Positions 26,320 to 58,678 of a stretch of 64,000 nucleotides of DNA are shown here, piece by piece. Origin of the DNA: Gammaproteobacteria bacterium (GTDB lineage Bacteria > Pseudomonadota > Gammaproteobacteria > S012-40); NCBI GenBank assembly GCA_029881255.1, contig JAOUMY010000010.1, positions 7,319-71,318 of the forward strand, given 5' to 3'. The notes below the pieces were generated by a model. The model was given only the letters and a program-made list of their open reading frames with translations. It had not been told where the DNA came from and searched no databases. Within the stretch, counting starts at the first letter, position 1. Every line of letters starts with the position of its first letter. A program made the translations under genes and the position numbers.

Positions 26320-29300
26320 ATGTTTAATCCGACACAATTGGGTGCGCGTACGCGTGCACCAATCAAGGCATTTTTGTTTTTAACTCTTGGCGCAAGCTTG
26401 GCGTCTTGTTCCTATCTTGGTTATGAAGAAGCCGGTTTGAGTGAACAAGATTTGCTAATCCAGGAACTCGATAATAACCAAATGGTGTGGGCGCAATCGG
26501 GTGTATCGGCATACAGCTTTGATATCGAAAAAGACTGTGACTGTCCTGATGAAATAAAGTCATCGCAGAAAATGACTATCCAGAGCGACGAGGCTCTGGA
26601 AGATAAAGAAGAGTTAGAAGCGGAGATTGATGCGGCGGCAGAAAAGGTTCGTGGCAAGATTGTAGCGCGTGAAGGCAGCGACAATAATCGTGCGCAGGCA
26701 AATCAATCTGTGCGTATGGAAACGGTTTTCTCTGATTTACGTCAAGCCATTCAGCAAGGATCAGTAAGAAGCGTTAATTACGATTCGCGATATGGATACC
26801 CCCAGACAGTTGTCTTGAATAACCAGTTCAGACAGTCTGGCGACGATAATGGCTCTTTTAGAGTTAATGGTTCGAACAACGGCGACAATCGCTCTTTCAA
26901 TACGTCTGCTGACGATGATGGCCGTGGTTTTAACAATGGCTTTACTGTCCGCACCAATAATTTTCAGGTTCGTCGCAGCGATGATGGCCGTCAAAACATT
27001 CCTCTTAGCGGGCAACTGATTCGCCAGGATAGTGATGATGCTAACCGCGTTGCTAACCCTTACTGGCTTGTTAGTAATGATGGACGCTGGAATCAATTGA
27101 ATGTTTCAGGCGATTTGGACAATCAATTCAGAGGCCTGCAAAATCGCTCATTCGTTCAACTAAATGGCCAATGGTTTCCTGGCGGAGCTAGTGGTCAAGG
27201 TGTATACATTCCGAACCAATTTCAAGTGCGGACAGACAGCGATGATAATCCCTTCCGTAATAACTTGAATGGAACCTTGTATTACTCAGTTGCCAACAAC
27301 ACATCTTACGATCTTGATGATTTTTATGTTAGCGACGATAGAGGCCGTAATGTCTTTTTGAACGTCCCTGCGAACCTGCGCAATCAAGCACTCGCCCTTT
27401 CAGGCCAACGAGTTAATCTTCAAGGTAACTGGTCGACAAACTATCTCGATCAAAATGCGCGTTTTAGTCCTAATGCATTCAATTCATTTGTCGCCAATGT
27501 ACGTTCCTTTCGCGGTATTCTGAATCGACCAAATACCTATCCCGTCCCCGGTGTTTTGCAAAATAACTACCTGCTTGTAGATGACTTCGGTGGAGTTCAG
27601 GAAGTTGAGATTCCTGCGAACCTGATCAACAATCTGGCTTATCTGATCGGTCAGCGTGTTGAAATACAGGGTTCGAATATCTATTCCGGATATTATGGAC
27701 AGCAGCGTGTTTATGCGCAGTCGGTTAGGCCGCTTCAGAATATTTTCACCAACAGCGTGGTGACTGGCGTCATCAGTACCATGTTGAGCTCTGGCGGGTA
27801 TAGCAATATAGATCAGGTATTATTGCAAACCGATCAGGGAACCTCGATTACCGTGCAGATTCCTTCGATCTATCGTAATCCATACAATACTTTGAGTGCA
27901 GGTATGCGCGTTCAAGTAAATGGGGCGTGGATTTCATCCGCATCGTATGGCAGCCAGGGTATTTTTGAGGCGCGGTCCCCAGTTCAGATTGTGAACTACG
28001 GATACAGCACAGCTACAACATATAGTGGTTACATCAATAATCTCGGGGCGTCCTTTGGTGGCGGCGTGAGTTGTACTGGTGCGCAAAACAACTACAGCTT
28101 CACCACTGACAACGGCCAGGTTTTGCAGTTGTACGTCAGTAATACGACACGCGTAAATGGACTCGCAAATGGACTGGTAAATATTCCTTATCAGTCACGC
28201 GTTCAGGTGTCTGGCACTATGCTCTCTCCCGGTGTATTGCAGGCCAATACGATCGATGTATACCAGCAAAACAACACAACAATTGTTGGTACCATTATTG
28301 AGATTGGTGCGCCTAGTGGAACATTTACCTGTACAGGCCAGTTGTTGAGCTATCGCTTGCTCGATCAATACGGCAATGCCTATTCGATTACTGTTTCACC
28401 TAGTAGCCAGGTGCAAGGTAGCCAGGGCACTAGCTTCCTGCGTATCGGTGACTATGTTCGTGTAACGGGTTCTTCAACCAATAACGGATATGGGTCAACT
28501 TTCTATGCGCGTCAGATCACTGCGATTTCAGTGGCGACGCCGGGAAGTGCGCTTCCGTTTCCCGGAACTATACCTGTGACCTATCCTAATCCTTTCACTG
28601 GTTCTCTGACTTCTTTCATGGGAACCGTGACTGGCTTGGATTGTTCCACTGGCCTGGATGAAACCTACATCTTTATAGATCAGTCAGGCGCGTTGTATAA
28701 GTTGCGCGTGAATATGAATCTGCTCGCAACAGGTATGCTGATCGATGTAGGTACTCAATTGTCGGTTACTGGCTCACTGGTTAATAACGAAATTGTTGCA
28801 CAACAAATCAACCCAATTGCAACATTTGCCGACCCGGTCAACCGCGTTCCACTATATGGAACTATTATGTCTCTGACTAATAGCGTCCAAACAACGTGTG
28901 GATTCCCGGTCAACACCTACCAGTTCCGAACTGACAATGGTCAGATCATGCAACTACGTATAACTAACGAAGCCGCTATGCATCAGCCAACGCAATTCGA
29001 CAATGGTACACGTCTCGTTGTCGTGCGTCGCGTGAGTGGTGCTAACCCACAAATCGTGGATGCGCTCGAAGTTCAATACTCCCCGATCGTCGGTGCTGGT
29101 CTGCCGGTGAACTTTGGAGTTGGTGGTCAACCGATTTCGGTCACTGGTACGATCACTTCGGTTGGTTGTACTAACGAATACTACTTCGTCGATCAAAATG
29201 GTACTGGCTATCAGTTACAGATGAACAACTCTTCGTTGCCGTCTACCGCCTTACTATCTGTTGGTACGAAGTTGAGTGTTACCGGGCAGATTCTCGGTAA

Positions 29301-29610
29301 TCGTTTGGTGGCAACCAGCGTTTATCCGAACACTTTGCCTGTGTATACGCCACCACCACCACCGGTTTCCGGAACGATCACAAATTTGATCAATACGGTA
29401 ACGCTTAGCTGTGGGGTCACAATCAATACATATAACTTCCAGAATGACAACGGTCGCGTACAACGTCTTCGCATCGGAAGTTCAGTCGGTGGATTGTTAC
29501 CAGGACAAACAGCTACAGGTTCAAGGCTCTATATCTCCAACCGCATAGAGTCATTTGATGGGCAGGTGATAGACGCGCTCAGCGTTAGCCAACAGAGCTA
29601 CTTTTACTGA
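26320..29610 (+). CDS. Large repetitive Asn/Gln/Gly/Ser/Thr-rich lipoprotein (1096 aa) with six C-terminal Cys-containing ~88-aa tandem repeats
   Basis: Strong RBS GGGAGGGAG before ATG; lipoprotein signal MFNPTQLGARTRAPIKAFLFLTLGASLAS|C. Six repeats at ~28070, 28330, 28640, 28900, 29165, 29410 nt share C…(Y/F)xFxxDNGQxxQLxxxN… then GxxVxVxGxL. The N-terminal half has degenerate N-F-x-V-R-x-D-S-D-D-N-type repeats, a PPPPP tract, and ends …QSYFY. Confidence 0.75.
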   Translation: MFNPTQLGARTRAPIKAFLFLTLGASLASCSYLGYEEAGLSEQDLLIQELDNNQMVWAQSGVSAYSFDIEKDCDCPDEIKSSQKMTIQSDEALEDKEELEAEIDAAAEKVRGKIVAREGSDNNRAQANQSVRMETVFSDLRQAIQQGSVRSVNYDSRYGYPQTVVLNNQFRQSGDDNGSFRVNGSNNGDNRSFNTSADDDGRGFNNGFTVRTNNFQVRRSDDGRQNIPLSGQLIRQDSDDANRVANPYWLVSNDGRWNQLNVSGDLDNQFRGLQNRSFVQLNGQWFPGGASGQGVYIPNQFQVRTDSDDNPFRNNLNGTLYYSVANNTSYDLDDFYVSDDRGRNVFLNVPANLRNQALALSGQRVNLQGNWSTNYLDQNARFSPNAFNSFVANVRSFRGILNRPNTYPVPGVLQNNYLLVDDFGGVQEVEIPANLINNLAYLIGQRVEIQGSNIYSGYYGQQRVYAQSVRPLQNIFTNSVVTGVISTMLSSGGYSNIDQVLLQTDQGTSITVQIPSIYRNPYNTLSAGMRVQVNGAWISSASYGSQGIFEARSPVQIVNYGYSTATTYSGYINNLGASFGGGVSCTGAQNNYSFTTDNGQVLQLYVSNTTRVNGLANGLVNIPYQSRVQVSGTMLSPGVLQANTIDVYQQNNTTIVGTIIEIGAPSGTFTCTGQLLSYRLLDQYGNAYSITVSPSSQVQGSQGTSFLRIGDYVRVTGSSTNNGYGSTFYARQITAISVATPGSALPFPGTIPVTYPNPFTGSLTSFMGTVTGLDCSTGLDETYIFIDQSGALYKLRVNMNLLATGMLIDVGTQLSVTGSLVNNEIVAQQINPIATFADPVNRVPLYGTIMSLTNSVQTTCGFPVNTYQFRTDNGQIMQLRITNEAAMHQPTQFDNGTRLVVVRRVSGANPQIVDALEVQYSPIVGAGLPVNFGVGGQPISVTGTITSVGCTNEYYFVDQNGTGYQLQMNNSSLPSTALLSVGTKLSVTGQILGNRLVATSVYPNTLPVYTPPPPPVSGTITNLINTVTLSCGVTINTYNFQNDNGRVQRLRIGSSVGGLLPGQTATGSRLYISNRIESFDGQVIDALSVSQQSYFY

Positions 29611-34174: not shown

Positions 34175-34657
34175 ATGGCGCGAGGAATCAATAAAGTAAT
34201 CATTATCGGAAATCTGGGTAATGATCCGGATATCAGATACATGCCAAGTGGTGGCGCTGTGGCGAATCTGAGTATTGCCACTTCAGAAAGTTGGAAAGAC
34301 AAGAATTCAGGTGAACCCCAGGAGCGGACCGAGTGGCATCGAGTAGTGTTATTTGGACGTCTTGGTGAAATTGCAGGTGAATATCTGCGCAAAGGTTCCA
34401 AGGTCTATGTTGAAGGCCGTTTGCAGACGCGTAAATGGCAGGACCAAAATGGACAGGACCGTTATACAACGGAAATCATCGCTAACGATCTGCAAATGCT
34501 TGATAGTCGTGGTGGTGCAGGTGATCAAGCCTTTAGTGGCAGTGGCATGGCAAATCAACAGCCACGTGGCCAGTCTTCGGCGCCCTCAAACCGTTCTCAG
34601 CCGCAGGCAGCGCCAGCTGGAGACTTTGGCGATTTCGATGACGACATCCCGTTTTAG
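34175..34657 (+). CDS. ssb: Single-stranded DNA-binding protein
   Basis: [63 protein letters not shown]… OB fold; Gly/Gln-rich linker; acidic tail [11 protein letters not shown] at 34175 with GAGG 6 nt upstream (track begins at GTG 34169). Confidence 0.95.
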
Positions 34658-34682
34658 GTCGCGACAATCGTATAACAAAAAA

Positions 34683-34708
34683 GGGACAGCAATACTGTCC
34701 CTTTTTTT
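34683..34708. terminator. Bidirectional rho-independent terminator between ssb (+) and the CULT-domain gene (-)
   Basis: GGGACAG/CTGTCCC stem (34683-34701) flanked by A6 upstream and T7 downstream. Confidence 0.75.
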
Positions 34709-35105
34709 ATTCAGTCGATATTTGCAAACGATTTACGATTAAACCAAAAAAATTATCATTCCCGGAAAACTTCCAGCCTAACTGCAGTCCGCAGTTTTTA
34801 CACACGATAATTTGCCAGTGATAGCCTGGAAACCAGGTGTCTTGTGGTGTGCGTAATCCTTGCGTGCGACAGTTTTCCACCTCCGAAAAACAGGCGATAT
34901 GAAAGGTGATGGCTGCAGGGTTGGTGAAGCTGTGTGTGAAATCGCCTGCTATAACAACGCGAAAATGTGGCGACGTGATTAGTGTGTTGCAAGCAATGCA
35001 GCATAAGTTGTCATTATGTTCGGAATGTAGCGACATATCTGCTGGTGAGAAAAGACGCGTGTTTCTCTCCAATATTTTTTGCTTTAAAAGATGTATTGAA
35101 TTCAT
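34707..35105 (-). CDS. Cereblon-like CULT / Yippee-type zinc-binding beta-tent domain protein (132 aa)
   Basis: Two CxxC pairs (…NLCCIACNTL… and …VCKNCGLQLGWKF…) and the segment TWFPGYHWQIIVCKNCGLQLGWKFSGNDNFFGL, which aligns with human cereblon's thalidomide-binding domain ([24 protein letters not shown]…FWGL) including all three cage tryptophans and the Phe. Also resembles Yippee (TRLFS…CxxC…L…CKNCxxxLGWxY). Confidence 0.7.
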   Translation of the reverse strand: MNSIHLLKQKILERNTRLFSPADMSLHSEHNDNLCCIACNTLITSPHFRVVIAGDFTHSFTNPAAITFHIACFSEVENCRTQGLRTPQDTWFPGYHWQIIVCKNCGLQLGWKFSGNDNFFGLIVNRLQISTE

Positions 35106-35677
35106 GGTGGTAATTGTGAATCAGTTAAATTGATTTAGTATGCGCAAAAAAATATATTTCGCAAGTAACATGTAAAGTGAAAACGTCAGAAATATATACC
35201 TTCATTCATGAATAGTAATTTTTGCATGGGTTTATATTGGTATCTACAAAACTCAACGATGCTCTTTGCGTGTCAGTTGGGATGTTATAACGATGAGGAT
35301 GTAAGCCTAGCAATGCTTACTCTCTCTGCAAGGAGAAGTATGCTTGCTGCGAGTCGTGTGCTAATTCGTTTGTGGATGGTAATTGCCGAGTGTTGGGCAA
35401 GAATCTAATGATGATATGCGTGATTAGAATTGGAGATGCGGAGATAGTTTAGCGATTAAGGCATGACTGTCGTTTTTAGTCGGATTTGGATTTCGTGTAG
35501 GTGACGCGGTTACACTTTCTAACTGCTCGCGGAAAAAATTCAGTTTTCACAACACAAAGGTGCGTAGGTAAAGACTATGCGCAAAATTGGAAATACGACA
35601 GATGGATTGCCAGTAAGAAATTTACGTTCTACACTGCCAAGTATTACAGGAACGTTGTAACAAAAGGAGTTCATGAC

Positions 35678-36301
35678 ATGATGCGGCGTGAAACAACGAC
35701 AATATTTTTTCTTCTCGGTGTCTTCATTACTTTTTTCAGTGCGTGTGGAGGCGGCGCGTCGGGTGATCCCGACAAGAATGAGATCATGCTTTATGTTAGT
35801 CTTGGGCCGAGTAGTCACTACCCAGAAAATGCCACTGACAACCAGGATCGAATTTTTAATTATTGGGGAAGAACCGTTAGGTTTTCTGTGCAAGGATTGG
35901 ATGAAGATCTCAACAGTTCGATCAACCTGATAGCAACCAGCAATTTTGATTGGGAAGGTAGTAGTTACCAGGATGGTACGCTTTACGCAAACACCGTATT
36001 CAAGCTACAGACAAATGGCAAGTATCCTGGTGGTAGTTACAAGTTTAAATTCTATGTGGACTGGAATGACAATGCTGTGTTTGATGCAGGCGATGTGTTT
36101 ATGGGAAGCTACAGTCTTTATGCAGACCAGGATGAAGATCCAAAGACGCCGATAACGAAAGTCGCAGCAGCGGATTGGGGAACACAAATCCGTTATGACG
36201 ATTATGATAACTCCATCGTCGTCAACGACCCCCTGGATTCGACAACTGGCACGCCCTGGATAGTGCACAGTATTGGAGAAGGTGTGCTGCAAGTCTATTG
36301 A
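35678..36301 (+). CDS. Hypothetical lipoprotein
   Basis: RBS AAAAGGAG 8 nt upstream of ATG 35678; signal MMRRETTTIFFLLGVFITFFSA|CGGGASG (lipobox-like), Asp/Tyr/Trp-rich mature part. Track ORF begins further upstream at 35501. Confidence 0.55.
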   Translation: MMRRETTTIFFLLGVFITFFSACGGGASGDPDKNEIMLYVSLGPSSHYPENATDNQDRIFNYWGRTVRFSVQGLDEDLNSSINLIATSNFDWEGSSYQDGTLYANTVFKLQTNGKYPGGSYKFKFYVDWNDNAVFDAGDVFMGSYSLYADQDEDPKTPITKVAAADWGTQIRYDDYDNSIVVNDPLDSTTGTPWIVHSIGEGVLQVY

Positions 36302-36419: not shown

Positions 36420-37655
36420 ATGACGAATGCTTATCCGGATTTTTCCCTGGCCTATTATTCCGGCGACCGTAAAACCGGCACACTGGTGCATATTAGAAAT
36501 AGTAATGGTCAAATCGAGGTCACAACACTACCGAGCGGAAAGGACTCCGGTCTCGATAAGGCCCTAAAACCAGTTATGGTAGGAACGACAGGTACTCAAG
36601 CTGTTTTGCTTGATCCGCAAAGCAAAGAGTTGAATGTCGTAAATGAATTTCCTGAAGACGCATTTGCTGCACACGTATACTCCGATCCTTATACAACACT
36701 AGACTGGTTTATGAATGATGGGGACAAGGAGACGGGTAACGATACCTTGAATTGTGGCAGTAACGGATCATCGGTGAGCGTAGTCGAAAACAGTAATTCG
36801 GGTGCGGCAAGATATCTTGGTACCGTCTGCGTAGGTCGAGGACATCATCAGGCGGCTTTTACGTGGCCATCTACAACAGTGCCCAATGCCCCCCGTCGGG
36901 CGGTTATTAGTAATCTCAAAGACGGCACTTTGAGTTTTGTCGGTAGTGACCCAAACGATAGCGCGACATTTTTAAAAGTACTTGCGACCTTGAATCTGTG
37001 TGAGCCAGATAAAGAGCAGGGCTTGCAAGCAGACGCCGTACCTAATAATGCATTCCCGCATGGGCTGGTTTACTCGTCAGTAACGGGGAAGCTTTATAAC
37101 CTCAACAACGGTTACGGTACGGTGGTTGTAATTGACCCCGCGACTGCCAAGATAGAGAAGCGGATTAACTTCAAAGGTCACAGCAATCTATTTATTTCCC
37201 GCGACGGACGCTATGTGATTGGACGCGGTGCCGACAGAAAATCCGACCCGGATCATGTAATTGCAAAATTGTCGGTATTGGATGTCACTGACAATACCGT
37301 AGTAGATAGTATCAATCTGTCCGATATTTATATCAGTAAGTATTTCTTCAACGTTGATGGAAGTCGTTTGTTTTTAACTACGAGCAGTTCCGGCAGCGAA
37401 GATCAACAAAAAAATCTAAAGACCGATGTAGTTGCCTGCTTCGACATGACGGCTTTGCCCAAGTTGAAACAAACCCATGAGCTGAAACTGGGTAGTGTTG
37501 GAACACTAGATTTTCTTTCGGATGGAACGGTGTTCAGTTCCGATGGCCCGAACGGTGAAGTAGTCGTGCTGGATGGGGGAAATCTGGAAATTGTCGAGCG
37601 TATCCGAGTTAATAGTGGTCAGCCGCATTCGCGTTTATGGCTACTGCCTAATTGA
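36420..37655 (+). CDS. Hypothetical protein, probable beta-propeller (YVTN-like) fold, no signal peptide
   Basis: 411-aa ORF rich in repeated …G(K/T)LY…N…V…VID… / …DG(R/S)…(F/Y)… beta-strand units; no N-terminal signal peptide detected. Confidence 0.4.
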   Translation: MTNAYPDFSLAYYSGDRKTGTLVHIRNSNGQIEVTTLPSGKDSGLDKALKPVMVGTTGTQAVLLDPQSKELNVVNEFPEDAFAAHVYSDPYTTLDWFMNDGDKETGNDTLNCGSNGSSVSVVENSNSGAARYLGTVCVGRGHHQAAFTWPSTTVPNAPRRAVISNLKDGTLSFVGSDPNDSATFLKVLATLNLCEPDKEQGLQADAVPNNAFPHGLVYSSVTGKLYNLNNGYGTVVVIDPATAKIEKRINFKGHSNLFISRDGRYVIGRGADRKSDPDHVIAKLSVLDVTDNTVVDSINLSDIYISKYFFNVDGSRLFLTTSSSGSEDQQKNLKTDVVACFDMTALPKLKQTHELKLGSVGTLDFLSDGTVFSSDGPNGEVVVLDGGNLEIVERIRVNSGQPHSRLWLLPN

Positions 37656-48391: not shown

Positions 48392-49966
48392 TTGGGGCTT
48401 GCGCGTTATTACGGGATTCTGGCGTTAATGTTTACTCTCTTTACATGGCATGGTCAGGCAATGGCCGGTCCAATGGACCGCTTCGAACGCATGGTTATGC
48501 CGGGTAAACTGAGTACGGGGCACGTCAAGTACGAAAAAGACTGCAACAACTGCCATAAACCTTTCGAAAAAGGGGCGCAAAGCGACCTCTGTCTTGATTG
48601 CCACAAGAAGGTCAATAAAGACGTTGTTGATAAAAAGGGTTTTCATGGTCGCGTCCCCAATATCGATACCCGAAAATGTAGTGATTGTCATAAAGAACAT
48701 CGTGGCAGGGATGCCGACATCGTAGCGTTTGATCGCGATACCTTCGATCATGATCGTTCAGACTTTAAGTTAAAAGGTTCTCACACCCGTTTAGGTTGTG
48801 TGAATTGCCATGATCCTAAAACGAAATACCGGGATGCAGGACAGGGATGTGTAGATTGTCATAAGACTGACGATGCCCACGAAAAGCGCTTGGGCGAAAA
48901 ATGCGGCAATTGTCATATTGAAACCGTTTGGGGTGAAGCGCATTACGATCACGACAAAACCAAATTCAAACTGGAGGCAAATCACAAACATGTTGCCTGT
49001 ATCGACTGCCATCCCAACCAGCGATACGAAGAAACACCGAAGGGTTGTTACACATGTCACCAGCTACGCGATGTCCATGAAGGGAATAATGGTAAGAAGT
49101 GTGAGTCCTGCCATAATGCCTATTTCTGGAACGAGATCAAATTTGATCACAATAAAGATACCAAGTATGAACTCGAAGGACGGCATGTTACTGTCGATTG
49201 CCAGTCATGTCATCGCGGCGACGTTTACAAGAAAATTGGCAAGGAGTGTATTAAGTGCCATAAGAAAGAGGATGCCCATCGGGGGTTGTTTGGCGAAAAG
49301 TGCCATGATTGCCATATTTCTCGCTCCTGGTCTAGAGCGACCTTTAATCACAATAAAGACACCAAGTTTGAATTGATTGGTGCACATCGTAAGGTTGATT
49401 GCGTCGCGTGTCATCGTGCGGACGTTTATGCCGATTTGAAAAAAGATTGCTATGCCTGTCACCGTAAGAATGATGTGCACGAAGGGCAGGAAGGAAAGGA
49501 TTGTAAGCATTGTCACAATGAAAAGGGTTGGACTAGTGAAGTGTTTTTCGATCATGATCTGACACGTTTCCCACTGCTAGACAGTCATGCGGTAACTGCA
49601 TGCGAGGAATGTCATTTAACGCCCGCGTTTAAGGATACCGATACCCAATGTTTTTCATGCCACAAAAAGGATGATGAAAAAATACACAAGTTGCGTTTGG
49701 GTGAGAACTGTAGTCTGTGTCATAACTCTAATGACTGGAAGAAATGGTTTTTTGATCACGACAAACAAACAGATTATAAATTGACAGGCGGGCACAAAGG
49801 GCTGGATTGTCATGCCTGTCATACCAAACCTGTAAAGAAAGAAATCAAGCTGAGTGATAAGTGCGTGGATTGTCATGAGCAGGATGACTACCACCACGGA
49901 GCCTTTGGTCGTGAATGCGCCAGATGCCACATAACAGAATCCTTTAAGAAAGTGATTATGAATTGA
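48392..49966 (+). CDS. Periplasmic multiheme cytochrome c, 21 CxxCH motifs arranged as seven tandem c7-type triheme modules
   Basis: Signal MGLARYYGILALMFTLFTWHGQAMA|GP. 21 CxxCH counted. Recurrent module FDH(D/N)K(T/D)xF(K/E)LxGxHxxVxCxxCH … CxxCH…D(A/V)H…G…CxxCH resembles Geobacter PpcA/c7 and the GSU1996-type c7 polymer. Confidence 0.85.
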   Translation: MGLARYYGILALMFTLFTWHGQAMAGPMDRFERMVMPGKLSTGHVKYEKDCNNCHKPFEKGAQSDLCLDCHKKVNKDVVDKKGFHGRVPNIDTRKCSDCHKEHRGRDADIVAFDRDTFDHDRSDFKLKGSHTRLGCVNCHDPKTKYRDAGQGCVDCHKTDDAHEKRLGEKCGNCHIETVWGEAHYDHDKTKFKLEANHKHVACIDCHPNQRYEETPKGCYTCHQLRDVHEGNNGKKCESCHNAYFWNEIKFDHNKDTKYELEGRHVTVDCQSCHRGDVYKKIGKECIKCHKKEDAHRGLFGEKCHDCHISRSWSRATFNHNKDTKFELIGAHRKVDCVACHRADVYADLKKDCYACHRKNDVHEGQEGKDCKHCHNEKGWTSEVFFDHDLTRFPLLDSHAVTACEECHLTPAFKDTDTQCFSCHKKDDEKIHKLRLGENCSLCHNSNDWKKWFFDHDKQTDYKLTGGHKGLDCHACHTKPVKKEIKLSDKCVDCHEQDDYHHGAFGRECARCHITESFKKVIMN

Positions 49967-52242
49967 TGTTGTCGATACGGAAAATTTATATCGTCATGTG
50001 TGTATTGCTTGCTGGACTGGGTCCAGTGCCAGTTTACGCAAGTACGATATTGACATCGGTGGATTACTCAAGTGACGAAAACTCCATCTATATCAAAGCG
50101 AATTTTGGCGACATCGTGAACTATGAAAAACACTTTCCGCGCAGCCGTGGGAAAATAATTCAAATTCAGATCAGCATGCCAGGTAAGGTTTTTACTGAAA
50201 CACAATTAAAGCGTCGAGAAACCATTGAGCCGGATGAAAATGCACCATCGGTGATACGTGACATCATATACGAAGGAAACGTTAGAGGTGGTCCGTATCT
50301 GGTTTTACGGTTTTCCTCTGTGGTGACGTTTAAACTCGACGAAAGCAAGGGCTCCAAGGTATTGACGGTAACAATTGATCGCAAAGAGCTCGAGGCGTTA
50401 CAGACGCCAGCTGTAACACAGCAGCCAAGCACGGATGTTAGTGAAGAAGAAAGTCGTGCAACCAGTCTAATGGATCAGGGGCGCAGAGCCTTAACTATGG
50501 GACAGAACAGTGAAGCCATTCTTTTCTTCAGTGACATACTGGGCATGCCGGAAAGTCGTTTTACGCAGGATGCCCGTGAGTATCTTGGATTGGCGCGTGA
50601 GCGAAATGGGCAATTGGATCTCGCAAAAAAGGAATATGAAGCCTATCTCAAAAGTTACGAAAAGAGTCCAAAGGCTAACACCGTCAGGCAGCGCTTGATG
50701 ACGCTAGAGGCGCGTATCGTACAGATGGAACGCCGGCTGAAGGACGGTAAGCGAACCGGAACCACTTCAGTTGCTGCGGCTAGACCTGCAGATTTATTTG
50801 GCCGCGTGGCTATTCAATCGTATAACGCAGGGCTGCGAAAAGAGGGTGAATCAACACCCGATTACGCTCAAGGGCGTATTCTGGCATTTACCGATCTCAA
50901 TCAGCGTTGGCGTGACAAGGACAAAGATGCGCGACTTAGTTTTAGCGGAACCATGGATTACGATCTAATCCGTTCTCGTTCCTCGTCAACAACATTGCAG
51001 GACACAGAAAAGCCCCGATACGAAGCACGTATACGCTCCCTATTCGGTGAATACAAAGGGCGAACAAATAATATACACGGCAGTTTCGGGCGTCAGTCTG
51101 TTAACAGTGGTGGTGTACTCGGTCGTTTCGACGGCGCGATGTTGGGGTATCAACTCAAGAATAAACTATCCGTTTATGGTGTTGTCGGTTTGCCGGTCGA
51201 CTATGAAGACAATCTCACCCCGCAAACCAATAAGCCCATGTTCGGCGGACGCCTAGACGTCAATGAGATCGCTAAGTATTGGAAGGCGTCGGTCTACGGT
51301 ATTCAGCAACAAGTTGATGGTATTCTCGAAAGACGGGCCGTCGGTGGAGATTTGCGCTATTTCTTCGAGAACAAGGTTTTTTACTCGCTGGTGGATTACG
51401 ATGCTTCATATGGAGTCTGGAATTTTCTCACTGGGCACTATGGCTGGCAGGTGAACAAGCGCCTGAAACTGGATGTGCATGCAGACCGGCGTCGTTCTCC
51501 TGTGATGTTGACAAGCAATGCGTTGCGTCGGCTTTCGGTTTTAACCAGTGCTTCAGATAAGAATAAAGCCATGGGAGAACTAGATATATCCGACGAGGCT
51601 GTATTCAACAGACTGACCAATGAGTCAACAATTAAAGATCTTCTAGACGCCAAAGTTTCCGAAGCGACTATCCGACAACTGGCGCTTGATCAAACCGGAG
51701 AATCGTCGTTATATACGGTAGGCATGAACTACGAACTTCGCAAAGATATCAGCCTTATCGCAAATCTCACTATATCAAGTTATGAGGCTGGTAAAGCGCA
51801 AGATATAGATGCTACTGAGGAAATGCCTGAGGAACCCGATCCTAAAGCGATCATTGAATCCCCGTTTTTAAAGGGCGATGTTGATATGATAGGTTCTGTC
51901 CAATTGGTGCGGCGCAATATGTACCGCGAGCGGGACGTCGTGCTTGCCGGATTGAGTTTTTCCATTAACGAACGCAATAAGCGTTATACCGGTAATGTCG
52001 CATTGCGCACACCTTATAAAGAAAAGTGGTGGTTGGATTTGCGTGGACGGGCGATCTATTCAGACAACATTGAACATGGTACTCAGGCGCTTAAGGTCTC
52101 GCCCACGGCGCGTACAGAATACCGCTATGACCGCCGCCTGACCTTTGAGTTGGAGGTGGGGGCGGACTATACCCGATCTACCGGTGCTAACGAGGATTTG
52201 TTTTGGTTTTTTGGCAATGCCGGCTTTCGCTACATGTTCTAA
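49966..52242 (+). CDS. Large outer-membrane beta-barrel (porin component of a porin-cytochrome conduit, MtrB/PioB-like role) with N-terminal soluble domain and TPR-like segment
   Basis: ATG overlaps cytochrome stop (TGATG). Signal MLSIRKIYIVMCVLLAGLGPVPVYA|ST. An N-terminal ~110-aa domain; an alpha-helical TPR-like stretch (…EAILFFSDILGMPESRFTQDAREYLGLARERNGQLDLAKKEYEAYLKSY…); then >450 aa of amphipathic beta-strand pattern ending …FGNAGFRYMF (C-terminal Phe). Confidence 0.6.
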   Translation: MLSIRKIYIVMCVLLAGLGPVPVYASTILTSVDYSSDENSIYIKANFGDIVNYEKHFPRSRGKIIQIQISMPGKVFTETQLKRRETIEPDENAPSVIRDIIYEGNVRGGPYLVLRFSSVVTFKLDESKGSKVLTVTIDRKELEALQTPAVTQQPSTDVSEEESRATSLMDQGRRALTMGQNSEAILFFSDILGMPESRFTQDAREYLGLARERNGQLDLAKKEYEAYLKSYEKSPKANTVRQRLMTLEARIVQMERRLKDGKRTGTTSVAAARPADLFGRVAIQSYNAGLRKEGESTPDYAQGRILAFTDLNQRWRDKDKDARLSFSGTMDYDLIRSRSSSTTLQDTEKPRYEARIRSLFGEYKGRTNNIHGSFGRQSVNSGGVLGRFDGAMLGYQLKNKLSVYGVVGLPVDYEDNLTPQTNKPMFGGRLDVNEIAKYWKASVYGIQQQVDGILERRAVGGDLRYFFENKVFYSLVDYDASYGVWNFLTGHYGWQVNKRLKLDVHADRRRSPVMLTSNALRRLSVLTSASDKNKAMGELDISDEAVFNRLTNESTIKDLLDAKVSEATIRQLALDQTGESSLYTVGMNYELRKDISLIANLTISSYEAGKAQDIDATEEMPEEPDPKAIIESPFLKGDVDMIGSVQLVRRNMYRERDVVLAGLSFSINERNKRYTGNVALRTPYKEKWWLDLRGRAIYSDNIEHGTQALKVSPTARTEYRYDRRLTFELEVGADYTRSTGANEDLFWFFGNAGFRYMF

Positions 52243-52949: not shown

Positions 52950-55900
52950 ATGGGGAAGGGGACGACTTTGTTCACCGAATTGGTGAAGCGCCCGCATTTC
53001 GGCTTTGCGCTTTACCCGCCTTTAGGCTTTATTTTTCTCCGAAAACTGTTAGTGGCAGTTGCAATGCCTGTTTTTTTGGCCTTGCTTATGTCGCTTGCTC
53101 CAGGCGTTGTATCGGCCGACGAAATCGTTGTTCCTGCGGATTTTGACCACAATGCCACTGGCTTTCCACTACAAGGCCAGCATGAACGCATCCGCTGCGA
53201 ATTTTGCCATAGAAACGAAGTTTTCCGCGGCACGCCAGTCAAATGCGATGCGTGCCATAACGATATCATCGCCCCCGGAAAACACGCCAAGCACATCCCT
53301 ACGCTGGAGCAATGTAGCGACTGCCATGTGCCCTCGGGGTTTGATATCTCCGCGCGCATGGATCACTCCCGTATTACGCGGCCTTGTGGCGCCTGCCACA
53401 ACGGCAATCTTGCCCAAGGTAAAACCGTCAATCATATACCCACCAATGAAACCTGTGATACCTGCCATACCACAGGCATTGCATGGAGCCCAAGTCTGTT
53501 CGATCACGTTGGTATTGTTGATGGGTGTCTGTTATGTCACAACAGCGTAAATGCGCGCGGCAAAGGCATGGGCCACATACTGGTGCAGGATGAATGTCAG
53601 GCCTGTCACACGACGCAGTTGTGGAGTGTGCCGTCCAATAGCGTCAATCATAACTTTGTAATCGGAAGCTGTGAGAGCTGTCATAACGGTGCCGTTGCCT
53701 CAGGAAAACCGGCTACGCATATCCCAACCACAGATTCCTGTGATACTTGCCACAAAGACATCGGCCGTAGTTGGCATAGTCAGGCAGGCTTTACAGAATT
53801 GCATGCGATGTTAACCGAAGGATGTCCCTTGTGTCATACCGGGGTTAGCGCGCGCGGAAAAACTATTGATCACATATTGTCGAGCGAACGCTGTGAGTCG
53901 TGTCATACCCCCACCAGTAGTTCATTTTTGGTGTTGCGTAATCCCAAACCAGACCACGCAGAAATCGTAGGGAGCTGCGTCAACTGTCATAACAACAGTC
54001 GCTCGGTTGGTAAGAATATCACTCACATCAACAGTACGAATCAATGTCAAGCCTGCCACGAAATCGTGACTTTCAGCATTGTTCCGAAAGTGGATCACAA
54101 TGAAGTCCTGGGAGTGTGCGGTGCTTGCCATAATAACGTGATTGCAACCGGTAAGGGGCCGAACCACATAGCGACACAAGAGGCGTGTGATGTATGCCAT
54201 GCAACCACGGCCTGGTTACCTACACAGTTCGATCACTCAAATTTTGATACCAGTAATTGCCAGAGTTGTCACAATGGCTTCCAGGCTACGGGCAAACAAA
54301 CGGGACACATCGCATCGACAGAAAAATGCGATGCCTGCCATACCACAGGTGTGTCGTGGACGGTATTGTTAGTAGATCACACGCAGACGCTTGGTGATAC
54401 CTGCGAGACGTGTCACAACAATGTTCTCGCTCGTGGTAAAGGACCTACGCATATCATTACGCAACAGGACTGCGGAATATGTCACACCCCCAACACTCCC
54501 TGGTTACAGAATGCGTTTGATCACCAGGGCGTAAGTGGTAATTGCGCGACATGTCATAACGGCTTGCTTGCTCGCGGCAAGTCACAGTCACACATATCGT
54601 CAACGGATGTGTGTGAAGCGTGTCATGCAATTGGAAACTGGGCCCCGTTGACGGTGGATCATACAGAAGTTGTAGGTGGGTGTGTCAATTGTCACAACGG
54701 CGCAATATCCACTGGAAAAAATAACGGACATATCAGTACCAGTAATGAATGTGGCGCTTGCCATAGTACGACGCAATGGAAACCTGCCGTACGCGTTGAT
54801 CACAATGAGGTGCAGGGAAAATGCGAAAGCTGTCACAATGGAAAAGTGTCACAGGGTAAAGATCTGCAGCACATCCTTTCCACAGGTGAATGTAACGCGT
54901 GTCACAATACTACGCAGTGGACTCCCGCCATTACTGTTGATCATCATGAGGTGATTGGCGAATGTGCCACGTGTCACAATGGCACGATTGCGCGAGGAAA
55001 GGGGGCGCAACATGTGCCCACGACTGAAAATTGTTCCGCATGTCACTCGACTACATTGTGGCAGCCAGTCACCAAGGTCGACCACTCTGAAATCGCTGAA
55101 AGCACAAGTTGCTTTGAATGTCACAACGGTGTATTGGCTCAAGGTAAATCCACGCTGCATATCGCTTCAACAAATGCTTGCGAAGCGTGTCACCTGGTCG
55201 CCGCGTGGATGCCTGCAAAATTTGTCGATCATAATGAGGTTTTGGGCAATTGTGTTACTTGTCACAACGGTGTTGTGACTAGAGGAAAATCTGCGTACCA
55301 CGTGAAAAGCACTGATGACTGTGACGGATGCCATAGCGTTACGGAGTGGTCGCCTGCAAAATTTGTCGATCATGAATTCATTCTTGGAACATGTGACGTT
55401 TGTCATAATGGCAGCATTGCAAGAGGCAAAGGTACTCTCCACTTTAATACGTCGAATACGTGCGAAGCCTGTCATTCAGTTACGCTTTGGACGCCAGTGA
55501 TTACAGTGGATCATAGTCAGGTGATTGGAAGTTGTTTTTCCTGCCACAACAACAATCCTGTACCTGGCAAAAGCAGACTACATATTGCGACCACTGATCT
55601 TTGCGAGGCCTGTCATAACACCACATCGTGGACGCCGGCAACAACAGTGGATCACAGTGAAGTTATTGGTGAATGCCAGAGCTGTCACGGACAGGGAGGG
55701 CGCGCCGCGGGTAAGAATCCTGGACACATGCAAACGACAGATGTGTGTGGAGCGTGTCATTTCACAACAGCATGGAAGCCAGTAGTGAGTGTCGATCACA
55801 AACAAGTTCTGGGGGAGTGCGAGACTTGCCACAATGGAGATATTGCCATTGGAAAAAATCCTGCGACGCATATTCTATCTTCCGATCAGTGTTCTGCCTG

Positions 55901-56498
55901 TCATATCACCAGTACCTGGATAACCATACGTGTCGATCATACGCAGGTCTTGGGGGCATGTGTTGATTGCCACAATATGCCTGTGCAACATATCAATACC
56001 ACCAATCTGTGCGTTGAATGTCACTCCACGACACGTTGGAGTCCAGTCGTACTAGTGGATCATGCTCAGGTGAATGGCGTGTGTTCCTCCTGCCATAATT
56101 TACCCGCAGGACATATTGCGTCGACCAATGTTTGTGATGCCTGCCATAACACCACGCGCTGGCGGCCAACAGTGGCTGTAGATCATGCCCAGGTATTGGG
56201 ATCGTGTGCCGATTGCCATTTTCTGCCGGCCTTTCACATTACCGCCACGACAGCATGTGATGCTTGTCATAGAACCGAATCCTGGGTTCCTTTTACTGTT
56301 GATCACAATGAAGTATTGGGATCATGTGAAAGCTGTCACCCAGCACCCGGTGACCACCTCGCCGCTGGCGTAACAAACAATTGTCAGAACTGCCATTCAA
56401 CAACGACCTGGACAGGTGCTACTAGTCCACTTCCCGGGGCAGCTGGCGCGAGCGTGTCGGGAGTATCGGCAACTGCGGCTGGTGGTGGTCATATGTAA
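52950..56498 (+). CDS. Giant multiheme cytochrome c with 47 CxxCH motifs, built from ~27-aa tandem repeats (candidate extracellular/outer-surface electron conduit)
   Basis: 1182-aa ORF; signal peptide (alt. start ATG 53064: MPVFLALLMSLAPGVVSA|DE). 47 CxxCH counted by eye. Near-periodic unit C-x-x-C-H-(N/T)-x5-7-W-x-P-x4-(V/F)-D-H-x-(E/Q)-V-x-G-x-C-x-x-C-H-N-G-x2-A-x-G-K-x3-H-I-x-(T/S)-x3-C. No TM segment after the signal. Confidence 0.85.
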   Translation: MGKGTTLFTELVKRPHFGFALYPPLGFIFLRKLLVAVAMPVFLALLMSLAPGVVSADEIVVPADFDHNATGFPLQGQHERIRCEFCHRNEVFRGTPVKCDACHNDIIAPGKHAKHIPTLEQCSDCHVPSGFDISARMDHSRITRPCGACHNGNLAQGKTVNHIPTNETCDTCHTTGIAWSPSLFDHVGIVDGCLLCHNSVNARGKGMGHILVQDECQACHTTQLWSVPSNSVNHNFVIGSCESCHNGAVASGKPATHIPTTDSCDTCHKDIGRSWHSQAGFTELHAMLTEGCPLCHTGVSARGKTIDHILSSERCESCHTPTSSSFLVLRNPKPDHAEIVGSCVNCHNNSRSVGKNITHINSTNQCQACHEIVTFSIVPKVDHNEVLGVCGACHNNVIATGKGPNHIATQEACDVCHATTAWLPTQFDHSNFDTSNCQSCHNGFQATGKQTGHIASTEKCDACHTTGVSWTVLLVDHTQTLGDTCETCHNNVLARGKGPTHIITQQDCGICHTPNTPWLQNAFDHQGVSGNCATCHNGLLARGKSQSHISSTDVCEACHAIGNWAPLTVDHTEVVGGCVNCHNGAISTGKNNGHISTSNECGACHSTTQWKPAVRVDHNEVQGKCESCHNGKVSQGKDLQHILSTGECNACHNTTQWTPAITVDHHEVIGECATCHNGTIARGKGAQHVPTTENCSACHSTTLWQPVTKVDHSEIAESTSCFECHNGVLAQGKSTLHIASTNACEACHLVAAWMPAKFVDHNEVLGNCVTCHNGVVTRGKSAYHVKSTDDCDGCHSVTEWSPAKFVDHEFILGTCDVCHNGSIARGKGTLHFNTSNTCEACHSVTLWTPVITVDHSQVIGSCFSCHNNNPVPGKSRLHIATTDLCEACHNTTSWTPATTVDHSEVIGECQSCHGQGGRAAGKNPGHMQTTDVCGACHFTTAWKPVVSVDHKQVLGECETCHNGDIAIGKNPATHILSSDQCSACHITSTWITIRVDHTQVLGACVDCHNMPVQHINTTNLCVECHSTTRWSPVVLVDHAQVNGVCSSCHNLPAGHIASTNVCDACHNTTRWRPTVAVDHAQVLGSCADCHFLPAFHITATTACDACHRTESWVPFTVDHNEVLGSCESCHPAPGDHLAAGVTNNCQNCHSTTTWTGATSPLPGAAGASVSGVSATAAGGGHM

Positions 56499-57532: not shown

Positions 57533-58678
57533 ATGAAGTCTTTTCTTTCTGGGATTCTAGCAGTTTTATCTCTGTCACCGGTCGCCTATGCCCAATCCGT
57601 TTCGATGCGTTATCTGGATCTGTTCATAGAGGGCGGCGCGACCGCTGGGTATTACTTTTCGGGCACAAGCTACGATAAAAATTTCAATACTTTCAGTTCG
57701 TATTCGCAATTTGAATTCAATCGCAATGCGGAAAATATTTTGTTAAATGATGCCTTGCTCGAGCTGCGCACAGGGCCATTACATGTCATGAATACTGAGT
57801 TCAGGATGGGGATGGGGCATTTGTCGAGGCTGACAATCCTGGATGGAAACGGCAATCTTGCGTTAGGGTCGCAGTACATACAGCAAGCACCTGTGAGCTC
57901 CACTTCCAGTCAGGACTTGAATGTCACGCGACGTCAACTCGAAGCGGAACTGATCCAATCTCAACGGGACGATGTCAATATCTATTACGCGCAGATGGCC
58001 ATATCTCCTGCGCCTTATGTGTTGTTGGAAGCGGGACGTTTGGCAACACATCTGGGTTATGAAGTCAGTCCCAGTTACACCAACTGGAATAGTGGTTTTG
58101 GCCTGGTGTGGATGAAGCAGCCGACGTACTACAATGGTTTTCGGTTGTCGTATGAGTTTGAAAAGTTGAATGCCTATCTTGAATTCAATCAGGACGACAG
58201 TTTCGCACGAACACCGGCGGTAGTTGCCGGTCTGTTCGGTAAATCGGCAGATATGCGCTATTCGGCGGCATTTTACTTTTCAGACTATGGGCATAATTTG
58301 TTTGACGCCATGGTGGAATCGGGATTTGATCGGGTAACGATTGCGGCGAATATCGATGTCCATATTGTTCAAGGCTCGGCGCAAGACATAAACAACCGTG
58401 TGAGTCTTGCCGCCGCCGTCTATTTAATCCCGCATATCATGCGATTTGATTTACCACTTCGATTGGAAATAATAAGAGATAGTCAGGCGGGTATGTATGA
58501 TATGAGTCGTGGATACTCTCTTACGTTTACCCCAACCGCACGGCTCGCAGAAAACTTTTTTGTACGTGCCGAGTTCGCTTTCATTTCCTCCTACAATGGT
58601 ATTTTTCGTGGTCTGCAAGACGAGCTCGTTTACTATGAAAAAACCGATTACTCCCTTCAGTTCGGCTACTACTTCTAA
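57533..58678 (+). CDS. Hypothetical outer-membrane beta-barrel protein (381 aa)
   Basis: RBS GGGGAG; signal MKSFLSGILAVLSLSPVAYA|QS; Tyr/Gly/Ser-rich alternating pattern throughout; C-terminus …DYSLQFGYYF (terminal Phe). Confidence 0.55.
   Translation: MKSFLSGILAVLSLSPVAYAQSVSMRYLDLFIEGGATAGYYFSGTSYDKNFNTFSSYSQFEFNRNAENILLNDALLELRTGPLHVMNTEFRMGMGHLSRLTILDGNGNLALGSQYIQQAPVSSTSSQDLNVTRRQLEAELIQSQRDDVNIYYAQMAISPAPYVLLEAGRLATHLGYEVSPSYTNWNSGFGLVWMKQPTYYNGFRLSYEFEKLNAYLEFNQDDSFARTPAVVAGLFGKSADMRYSAAFYFSDYGHNLFDAMVESGFDRVTIAANIDVHIVQGSAQDINNRVSLAAAVYLIPHIMRFDLPLRLEIIRDSQAGMYDMSRGYSLTFTPTARLAENFFVRAEFAFISSYNGIFRGLQDELVYYEKTDYSLQFGYYF

What the first reader, a model, noticed from the sequence alone, without database searches (positions are those of the whole stretch)
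34707..35105. Bacterial cereblon-like CULT domain with an intact tri-Trp ligand cage, next to ssb
The 132-aa protein aligns convincingly by eye with the thalidomide-binding CULT domain of human cereblon. It has both zinc-binding CxxC pairs, and the stretch TWFPGYHWQIIVCKNCGLQLGWKF…FFGL matches [24 protein letters not shown]…FWGL, conserving the three tryptophans and the phenylalanine that form cereblon's aromatic cage. Stand-alone bacterial CULT proteins are known from a minority of genomes (e.g. Magnetospirillum) and their physiological ligand and function are unknown. Here it shares a bidirectional terminator with ssb and sits at the edge of an island encoding other eukaryote-like domains (ankyrin, Sel1).
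Basis: partly seen in the sequence, partly recalled or inferred. Interest (0 to 1): 0.6.

Follow-up and report, generated by a model that had tools for sequence, protein, structure and literature searches.

The report
Bacterial cereblon-like (CULT) ligand-binding protein
This small gene in an uncultured gammaproteobacterium encodes a genuine bacterial relative of the thalidomide-binding domain of human cereblon with its binding pocket intact, but it is one more member of an already described and already annotated family whose bacterial role is still unknown.

Summary
Window 34707..35105 (-) encodes a 132-aa protein that matches the solved bacterial cereblon homologue MsCI4 (E 1.5e-17) and the cereblon thalidomide-binding domain (E ~1e-9). 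No other beta-tent branch scores (YPEL5 E 1.1). An AlphaFold model (pLDDT 87-97 over blocks 31-130, except 80 for 81-90) superposes on MsCI4 at 1.0-1.5 A over about 100 residues. Both CxxC zinc pairs, the three cage tryptophans (W91, W97, W111) and the fourth aromatic residue (F113, as in human F402) are present. They are invariant or nearly so in 151 single-domain relatives. The shared hairpin terminator with ssb is real.

The context claims are weaker. No gene family recurs next to CULT genes in 51 loci, and no other copy lies beside ssb. There is no clear compositional island. The host is a Gammaproteobacteria MAG that also encodes multihaem cytochromes, which does not suggest an intracellular, eukaryote-mimicking organism.

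Most likely it is a cytoplasmic, zinc-stabilised, single-domain receptor for a uracil- or cyclic-imide-type ring. The physiological ligand is not determined.

Verdict: a new member of a known family (NCBI already names relatives "cereblon family protein"). Interest is modest.

The parts
34707..35105 (-). Gene for the 132-aa single-domain CULT (bacterial cereblon-family) protein, including the TAA stop at 34707-34709
   Evidence: ORF list. An identical protein was called on the same contig in JGI, Logan and ENA. It is the only match in the window to the family profile, E 1.1e-68.
34719..35006 (-). CULT domain proper (residues 34-129), a beta-tent fold. Residues 1-29 are predicted disordered.
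   Evidence: AF2 block-mean pLDDT is 87-97 for residues 31-130 (80 for block 81-90), and below 50 for residues 1-29. Foldseek gives MsCI4 at rmsd 1.0-1.5 A over 99-105 columns, target TM about 0.9. phmmer aligns residues 36-127 to MsCI4.
34989..35000 (-). First zinc-binding CxxC (C36-I-A-C39)
   Evidence: C36 and C39 are present in 150/151 relatives and align to the first CxxC of MsCI4.
34911..34922 (-). Sensor-loop motif N62-P63-A64-A65 (the family NPxG motif, here with Gly replaced by Ala)
   Evidence: N62 is 151/151 and P63 is 147/151. Position 65 is Gly in 139/151 and Ala in 6/151. The NPxG motif and the sensor-loop Asn are described for MsCI4.
34767..34835 (-). Aromatic-cage segment W91...W97...C102xxC105...W111-K-F113, which holds the three cage Trp, the second CxxC and the fourth aromatic residue
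   Evidence: W91, W97, W111, C102 and C105 are 151/151. Position 113 is F in 105 and Y in 46. They map to MsCI4 W79, W85, W99 and Y101, the last being human F402 (alignment). The codons were checked by eye.
34677..34708 (.). Bidirectional intrinsic terminator hairpin shared by the convergent ssb and CULT genes. Its T-run overlaps the CULT stop codon.
   Evidence: Folding energies are -20.4 (+) and -21.4 (-) kcal/mol, z -5.8 and -5.4, with 0 of 200 shuffles as stable. Sequence read.
35149..35176 (-). Weak sigma-70-like promoter match (TTTACA-16-TATTTT) 44-71 nt upstream of the ATG. It is only a candidate.
   Evidence: The consensus scan scores it 9/12, and the number of such sites in the region is no greater than in shuffles.

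Best explanation
The gene encodes a stand-alone, cytoplasmic CULT-domain protein of the bacterial 'cereblon family'. Shown here: it has the CULT sequence and predicted fold, a four-cysteine site equivalent to the structural zinc site of MsCI4 and cereblon, and an intact pocket made of W91, W97, W111 and F113, closed by the N62-P63 sensor loop. Inferred from experiments on the homologue MsCI4 and on cereblon: the pocket accepts a small five- or six-membered imide, lactam or uracil ring. Examples are uridine or deoxyuridine, glutarimide or aspartimide, and therefore possibly C-terminal cyclic imides that arise on damaged proteins. The backbone around W91 makes the hydrogen bonds, and the pocket region folds on binding. 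The protein has no Lon-like or DDB1-binding module, no signal peptide and no conserved partner gene. It would therefore act as an autonomous reader or binder of that moiety rather than as part of an operon-encoded machine. It is transcribed on its own, convergently with ssb, and ends at a shared hairpin terminator. Which ligand is physiological, and what happens after binding, is not known for any bacterial member.
For: Sequence: MsCI4 E 1.5e-17 and cereblon TBD about 1e-9. Structure: the top 30 Foldseek hits are all MsCI4, at rmsd 1.0-1.5 A. Conservation: the four Cys, three Trp, the F/Y position, N62 and G110 are invariant or nearly so in 151 relatives and in the five closest. Residue-for-residue mapping to the experimentally defined MsCI4 pocket: W79, W85, W99, Y101 and the sensor-loop Asn. 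MsCI4 binds thalidomide and uridine but not thymidine or cytidine, and folds on binding. Cereblon's natural degron is the C-terminal cyclic imide (abstracts). Single-domain architecture: 2800 library representatives match, the best mostly 120-180 aa, and the longer ones carry no extra Pfam domain. No hydrophobic N-terminus. No recurrent neighbour in 51 loci. Terminator.
Against: No binding experiment exists for this protein. It deviates from the family majority at several positions near the pocket: D89 where MsCI4 has F77 and human has H378, Q108 where 136/151 have His, F56 where 122/151 have His, and NPAA instead of NPxG. These could change affinity or specificity. The N-terminal 29 residues are unmodelled, and no clear ribosome-binding site precedes the ATG (read), so the true start is uncertain. 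The downstream function is pure inference.
Confidence: 0.6

Rival explanations
1. It is specifically a reader of C-terminal cyclic imides (aspartimide or glutarimide) on damaged bacterial proteins. It marks or hands them to a protease or repair system, making it a prokaryotic forerunner of the cereblon degron pathway.
For: The cage is conserved from bacteria to humans. Cereblon recognises C-terminal cyclic imides formed by spontaneous or PCMT1-driven protein damage, chemistry that is not restricted to eukaryotes. The MsCI4 group treats C-terminal cyclic imides as the known physiological recognition principle.
Against: No protease, chaperone or Pcm-type gene recurs beside CULT genes. No domain fusions were found. 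No bacterial data appear in the papers searched.
Confidence: 0.2
2. It belongs to another beta-tent branch (Yippee/Mis18, MsrB, Mss4, GFA) and only superficially resembles CULT.
For: The only Pfam hit is Yippee-Mis18, at 22.7 bits and below the cut-off.
Against: PDB-wide phmmer gives CULT proteins at 1e-17 to 6e-8 and YPEL5 at E 1.1, with no MsrB, Mss4 or RIG-I match. All 50 listed fold hits are MsCI4 or cereblon. The tri-Trp cage is intact and invariant.
Confidence: 0.01
3. It is a eukaryote-derived effector acquired by horizontal transfer as part of an ankyrin/Sel1 'eukaryote-like' island, and is delivered to a host cell.
For: Ankyrin and Sel1 repeat proteins lie 2.5-4 kb away. F113 and K112 (GWKF) match the human sequence rather than MsCI4's GWHY.
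Against: It is closer to bacterial MsCI4 than to animal cereblon, and all its best relatives are single-domain proteins from bacterial MAGs. Phe at position 113 is the bacterial majority state, 105/151. GC3 is like the neighbours and there is no compositional step. There is no signal peptide. The genome encodes multihaem cytochromes and a porin typical of free-living environmental bacteria and is labelled Gammaproteobacteria.
Confidence: 0.03
4. It functions with its neighbours ssb and uvrA in DNA metabolism, for example by sensing uracil or deoxyuridine.
For: It is adjacent to ssb with a shared terminator. MsCI4 binds uridine and deoxyuridine. The closest relative's gene overlaps an NdpA nucleoid-protein gene.
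Against: The genes are convergent and so not co-transcribed. No other CULT locus of the 50 examined has ssb or a recurrent DNA-repair neighbour. RecD2-type helicases occur in only 3/92 neighbours. No LexA-box consensus occurs anywhere in the window.
Confidence: 0.05
5. It is an enzyme that acts on the bound ring (imide or lactam hydrolase, or a redox enzyme like its fold relative MsrB), not merely a binder.
For: The beta-tent superfamily includes the enzymes MsrB and GFA. Several MsCI4 crystal structures contain hydrolysis products of ligands (entries 6r0s and 6r0v). Some relatives sit beside AhpC and VIT1.
Against: No catalytic activity is reported for MsCI4 or cereblon in the papers read. 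Imide ligands are described as hydrolytically unstable on their own (abstract of PMC10641816). The conserved residues are aromatic or structural rather than an obvious catalytic set.
Confidence: 0.06

Closest known systems
MsCI4 (MGR_0879, 'cereblon isoform 4') of Magnetospirillum gryphiswaldense, the structurally characterised bacterial single-domain CULT protein
   Same: Both are single-domain proteins with two CxxC zinc motifs, a tri-Trp cage and a sensor-loop Asn-Pro. The alignment runs gap-free from C36 to about residue 117. Sequence E is 1.5e-17 to 3.7e-17, with 32-35% identity in the structural alignment and rmsd 1.0-1.5 A.
   Different: The fourth cage residue is Phe (F113), as in human F402, where MsCI4 has Y101. 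D89 replaces F77, Q108 replaces the His of CGSHLGW, and the motif is NPAA instead of NPAG. The N-terminal extension is unrelated and disordered, and MsCI4 has a 3-residue longer loop after the last Trp.
Thalidomide-binding (CULT) domain of human and animal cereblon (CRBN)
   Same: Same fold and pocket. 13 of 24 residues are identical across the core cage segment, including W380, W386, W400, F402 and the second CxxC.
   Different: There is no Lon-like N-terminal domain and no DDB1-binding region, so no link to a cullin-RING ligase. Similarity is lower (E about 1e-9, 25-27% identity in structural alignments). Asp replaces H378 and Gln replaces H397.
Bacterial CULT group of Lupas, Zhu and Korycinski 2015 (PMC4287342); NCBI name 'cereblon family protein'
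   Same: The protein consists entirely of the CULT domain. The taxonomic spread found here matches the description: Desulfobacterota, some alpha- and gammaproteobacteria, spirochaetes. A Burkholderiales relative is already named 'cereblon family protein' by NCBI.
   Different: It belongs to a small subgroup, at most 66% identical in the core to anything in the databases searched. That subgroup carries D89 (12/151) and Q108 (12/151) together in 7 sequences. The exact protein is not in the NCBI protein set.
Yippee / Mis18 (Pfam PF03226)
   Same: Nearest other beta-tent family, with the same two CxxC zinc motifs. Weak profile match of 22.7 bits.
   Different: The match is below the Pfam cut-off, YPEL5 scores only E 1.1, and the yippee family is not defined by the tri-Trp cage.

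Membership tests
CULT domain (cereblon family) | Significant sequence similarity to CULT domains, stronger than to other beta-tent families | tested here: met
   MsCI4 E 1.5e-17 and CRBN about 1e-9, against YPEL5 E 1.1 and no MsrB, Mss4 or RIG-I hit.
CULT domain (cereblon family) | Beta-tent fold superposable on solved CULT structures | tested here: met
   AF2 model with block-mean pLDDT 87-97 over residues 31-130 (80 for block 81-90). All 50 listed Foldseek hits are MsCI4 or CRBN, at rmsd 1.0-2.5 A and target TM 0.85-0.92. This is a prediction, not an experimental structure.
CULT domain (cereblon family) | Two CxxC motifs forming the structural zinc site | tested here: met
   C36/C39 and C102/C105 are present and aligned. 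They occur in 150-151 of 151 relatives. Zinc binding itself is not testable here.
CULT domain (cereblon family) | Three invariant tryptophans forming the aromatic cage | tested here: met
   W91, W97 and W111 align to MsCI4 W79, W85 and W99. The human equivalents W380, W386 and W400 follow from the position of the quoted segment. All three are 151/151 in relatives.
CULT domain (cereblon family) | Fourth aromatic residue (Phe or Tyr) two positions after the third Trp | tested here: met
   F113 corresponds to human F402 and MsCI4 Y101. The family has F in 105 and Y in 46.
CULT domain (cereblon family) | [quoted passage not shown] | tested here: inconclusive
   N62 and P63 are present, but Gly is replaced by Ala (NPAA). 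Ala occurs in 6/151 relatives. The loop is modelled with high confidence.
CULT domain (cereblon family) | Binding of glutarimide- or uracil-type ligands in the cage | not testable with these tools
   Inferred only from MsCI4 and CRBN experiments.
Bacterial single-domain CULT group | Protein consists of the CULT domain only: no Lon domain, no secretion signal | tested here: met
   132 aa, with no other Pfam or NCBIfam domain. The N-terminus is hydrophilic and disordered.
Cereblon proper (CRL4 substrate receptor) | N-terminal Lon-like domain and DDB1-binding helices | tested here: not met
   Only 33 residues precede the domain and they show no Lon match. It is not a cereblon orthologue in the E3-ligase sense.
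Yippee/Mis18 (PF03226) | Score above the Pfam gathering threshold | tested here: not met
   22.7 bits against a cut-off of 26.6.

The most novel reading that the evidence does not exclude
The window protein represents a distinct subgroup of bacterial CULT proteins. In it the pocket-rim residues are changed together: Asp at the position of human H378 / MsCI4 F77, Gln at the position of the conserved His before the third Trp, and NPAA in the sensor loop. This subgroup may have a ligand preference different from MsCI4 and cereblon. More broadly, bacterial CULT proteins may read cyclic-imide damage marks (or a uracil-type metabolite) in prokaryotes, making them the ancestral form of the cereblon degron-recognition module.
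Probability: 0.15. Interest if true: 0.65.

Novelty: new member of a known kind. Interest (0 to 1): 0.25.

Why it matters
The CULT pocket is the most heavily exploited ligand site in targeted protein degradation, and the bacterial homologue MsCI4 is a standard surrogate for screening. What these proteins do in bacteria is still unknown. This locus adds a divergent member with a human-like Phe at the fourth cage position and an unusual Asp/Gln pocket rim, which could be a useful comparison protein for ligand-specificity studies. It does not offer a contextual clue to the physiological function. The survey of 51 loci shows no conserved partner gene, which suggests that gene neighbourhood will not solve the question.

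Tried and rejected
(1) Conserved gene neighbourhood. I clustered all ORFs of 51 CULT loci all-against-all and ran Pfam on the two genes on each side. No family occurred in more than 3 of 92 neighbours on either side. The one large cluster (13 loci, about 620 aa) lies at scattered distances of 0.3-6.7 kb and is not a partner; I did not annotate it.

(2) Link to the SOS response or DNA repair through ssb and uvrA. No CTGT-N8-ACAG box occurs anywhere in the window, and no other locus has ssb beside CULT.

(3) Domain fusions as functional hints. Ten longer relatives (176-236 aa) have no extra Pfam domain. The apparent 22-repeat and 4-repeat proteins P0006 and P0013 are eukaryote-type cereblon gene models with perfect tandem duplications, most likely assembly artefacts.

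(4) Horizontal-transfer island. Composition and GC3 show nothing clear.

The 49 loci are therefore a lower bound, biased towards relatives of the query.

(7) Rfam and tRNA scans of the window found nothing. The sample accession is not mentioned in the paper library.

(8) The consensus terminator scan missed the hairpin. Direct folding was needed.

(9) Small repeats in the upstream intergenic region are short two-copy matches of no evident significance.

Full report
**The object**

The same protein is called on the same contig in JGI, Logan and ENA assemblies. A profile of the family finds no second copy in any of the six frames of the window. No convincing Shine-Dalgarno sequence precedes the ATG (read). 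The first 29 residues are predicted disordered. The exact start is therefore uncertain, but the domain itself is unaffected.

**Is it a CULT domain?**

Yes, by every test available.

- phmmer against all PDB sequences returns only cereblon-type chains below E 1e-7. The Magnetospirillum single-domain protein MsCI4 scores E 1.5e-17 to 3.7e-17, and animal cereblon thalidomide-binding domains score about 1e-9 to 6e-8. The only other hit is YPEL5 at E 1.1.
- Pfam gives only a sub-threshold Yippee-Mis18 match, 22.7 bits against a cut-off of 26.6. NCBIfam gives nothing meaningful. Of ten other bacterial CULT proteins, none passes the Pfam cut-off. This explains why precomputed annotation shows '-' for all of them.
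- An AlphaFold2 model built on five sequences has block-mean pLDDT of 87-97 for residues 31-130, except 80 for residues 81-90.
- In a Foldseek search of the PDB, the top 30 hits are all MsCI4, at rmsd 1.0-1.5 A over about 100 residues and target TM about 0.9. Cereblon follows.

**Residue-level check**

The phmmer alignment is gap-free from C36 to about residue 117, so the mapping is unambiguous.

| Window | MsCI4 | Note |
|---|---|---|
| C36/C39, C102/C105 | the two CxxC zinc motifs | structural zinc site |
| W91, W97, W111 | W79, W85, W99 | aromatic cage |
| F113 | Y101 | human F402 |
| N62-P63 | sensor-loop Asn-Pro | NPxG motif |
| Y95 | Y83 | human Y384 |

The mapping rests, with residue roles taken from the papers read.

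It matches solved cereblon chains 24/24, at residues 379-402 of a 442-residue chain. By my count it shares 13 of 24 residues with the window protein.

**Conservation in relatives**

The word-index search found only four relatives, 43-56% identical. In these, all the residues above are invariant.

The exhaustive HMMER search with that alignment found:

- 2800 cluster representatives at E <= 1e-3
- 1524 at E <= 1e-10
- 124 at E <= 1e-30
- the best hits almost all 120-180 aa

In a MAFFT alignment of 151 single-domain relatives:

- W91, W97, W111, C102, C105, N62, G110 and F119 are 151/151
- C36 and C39 are 150/151
- position 113 is Phe in 105 and Tyr in 46

The MsCI4 tyrosine is thus the minority state, and the 'human-like' Phe of the window protein is the bacterial norm.

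The window protein departs from the family majority at several positions:

- F56, where 122 have His
- A65, where 139 have Gly, so NPxG becomes NPAA
- D89, where relatives have F/H/W/Y and only 12 have Asp
- Q108, where 136 have His and only 12 have Gln

D89 and Q108 occur together in seven sequences, including the closest relatives. This marks a small subgroup with an altered pocket rim. Whether it changes ligand preference is unknown.

**Surroundings**

- Upstream on the plus strand lie uvrA (-), an MFS transporter and ssb.
- ssb ends at 34657. The CULT gene converges on it.
- The 49-bp gap holds a hairpin, A6-GGGACAG-CAATA-CTGTCCC-T7, at 34677-34708. It is very stable on both strands (z -5.8 and -5.4).
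- On the other side, after a 395-bp AT-rich spacer, come a lipoprotein-like ORF and a 411-aa ORF, neither with a Pfam match. Then follow an ankyrin-repeat protein, a Sel1-repeat protein and an ECF sigma/anti-sigma pair.

**Is the context meaningful?**

A scan of one genome per GTDB species returned 49 loci with relatives. These come from Desulfobacterota, Spirochaetota/Leptospirales, Rickettsiales MAGs, Endozoicomonas, Magnetococcales, Sulfuricaulis, a Burkholderiales MAG and others. The best is 47% identical, and the window's own genome is not among them. This spread matches the published description of the bacterial group.

I clustered all ORFs of 51 loci and scanned the two genes on each side against Pfam. 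No family occurs in more than 3 of 92 neighbours on either side, and none of the other loci has ssb next to CULT.

The closest relatives differ again in their contexts:

- P0003's gene overlaps the end of an NdpA nucleoid-protein gene.
- P0002 is beside a cNMP-binding gene.
- The P0004 group lies between FecR/IclR and VIT1/AhpC genes.

Adjacency to ssb is therefore incidental.

There is no E. coli-type LexA box in the window. There is no clear compositional step, and GC3 of the gene is 0.444, like its neighbours.

The contig belongs to an NCBI MAG labelled 'Gammaproteobacteria bacterium' (S12 is MDH5547151.1 and SSB is MDH5547189.1). The window also encodes multihaem c-type cytochromes of the c7/MtrC type and an OmpL-like porin. 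This points to a free-living environmental bacterium rather than an intracellular one. The 'eukaryote-like island' idea is not supported.

**How it most likely works**

Shown here: the CULT sequence and predicted fold, the zinc-site cysteines, an intact cage, single-domain architecture, no signal peptide, a monocistronic layout and no conserved partner.

Inferred from MsCI4 and cereblon work:

- The cage binds uracil- or imide-type rings. MsCI4 binds thalidomide and uridine but not thymidine or cytidine.
- The pocket folds on binding.
- Cereblon's natural recognition motif is the C-terminal cyclic imide, produced by protein damage or by PCMT1.
- The ligand space may be wider still.

My best reading is an autonomous cytoplasmic reader or binder of such a ring. 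Confidence that it is a CULT protein is about 0.97. Confidence in the binding mechanism as stated is about 0.6.

The rivals are each unlikely. They are another beta-tent family, a eukaryote-derived effector, a DNA-repair partner of ssb, and an enzyme.

The sharper version, a reader of cyclic-imide damage coupled to proteolysis, is attractive but has no support from gene context or domain fusions. No paper in the library addresses bacterial function.

**Novelty and interest**

The family was defined in 2015. Its bacterial representative has dozens of crystal structures. NCBI already names relatives 'cereblon family protein'.

This is a new and fairly divergent member, at most about 66% core identity to anything found, with a minor subgroup signature. 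It does not make the open question about bacterial CULT function more tractable, because its context is uninformative. I score interest at 0.25.

Noticed in passing
P0006 and P0013 (library proteins): The apparent 22-domain (1737 aa) and 4-domain (1022 aa) 'multi-CULT' proteins are eukaryote-type cereblons (Lon-like N-terminus plus CULT). Their C-terminal part is a perfect tandem repeat of a partial CULT segment, so they are almost certainly assembly or gene-model artefacts.
   Followed up: partly
L020 7842-8321 and 8441-8974 (Desulfovibrionaceae MAG): Two CULT genes lie in tandem on the same strand. This is the only locus of 51 with a duplication.
   Followed up: no
L053 1-534 / 527-934: In the closest relative (P0003, 56% identical), the CULT gene start overlaps by 8 nt the end of an NdpA/NA37 nucleoid-associated protein gene, which suggests co-transcription there. 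The contig is only 1.5 kb.
   Followed up: partly
L002, L010, L011 (P0004 group; Sulfuricaulis and other Pseudomonadota MAGs): In this sub-lineage the CULT gene is consistently followed by convergent VIT1 (iron/manganese transporter family) and AhpC/peroxiredoxin genes. In L002 it is also preceded by IclR and FecR-domain genes. The context is conserved only within this lineage.
   Followed up: partly
window 34707-35105 versus the NCBI record: Neighbouring proteins of this contig are in NCBI (S12 MDH5547151.1, SSB MDH5547189.1). The exact 132-aa CULT protein is held only by JGI, Logan and ENA. It may be uncalled or called with another start in GenBank. A 154-aa near-identical member (P0173) exists on a 770-bp ENA contig.
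   Followed up: partly
window 48392-49966, 49963-52242, 52950-56498, 57533-58678: A cluster of multihaem c-type cytochromes (cytochrome c7/c3 and MtrC/MtrF-like domains), a 759-aa ORF without a Pfam match and an OmpL-like beta-barrel porin. It looks like an extracellular electron-transfer module.
   Followed up: no
window 35501-36301 and 36420-37655 (+): Two ORFs without any Pfam match lie divergent from the CULT gene across a 395-bp AT-rich spacer. The first has a lipoprotein-like signal (…FFSACGGG) when started at the internal Met, which is the 207-aa call in L001. The second is 411 aa.
   Followed up: no
window 26320-29610 (+): A 1096-aa protein with DUF6174 and DUF5666 matches, next to uvrA.
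   Followed up: no
window 34677-34708: The consensus terminator scan failed to report a textbook bidirectional terminator, probably because the flanking A6/T7 runs extend the stem and leave no free T tail.
   Followed up: yes
window 1-25000: The left part of the window is the rpoC / S12 / S7 / EF-G / EF-Tu region followed by a run of ORFs the size of ribosomal-protein genes. Only the S12-to-EF-Tu stretch was read. S12 sits in a 90% cluster of 1042 members that includes Legionellales and 'Candidatus Eutrophobiaceae' MAG proteins, whereas S7, EF-Tu and SSB are singletons or nearly so. This indicates a poorly sampled gammaproteobacterial lineage.
   Followed up: partly
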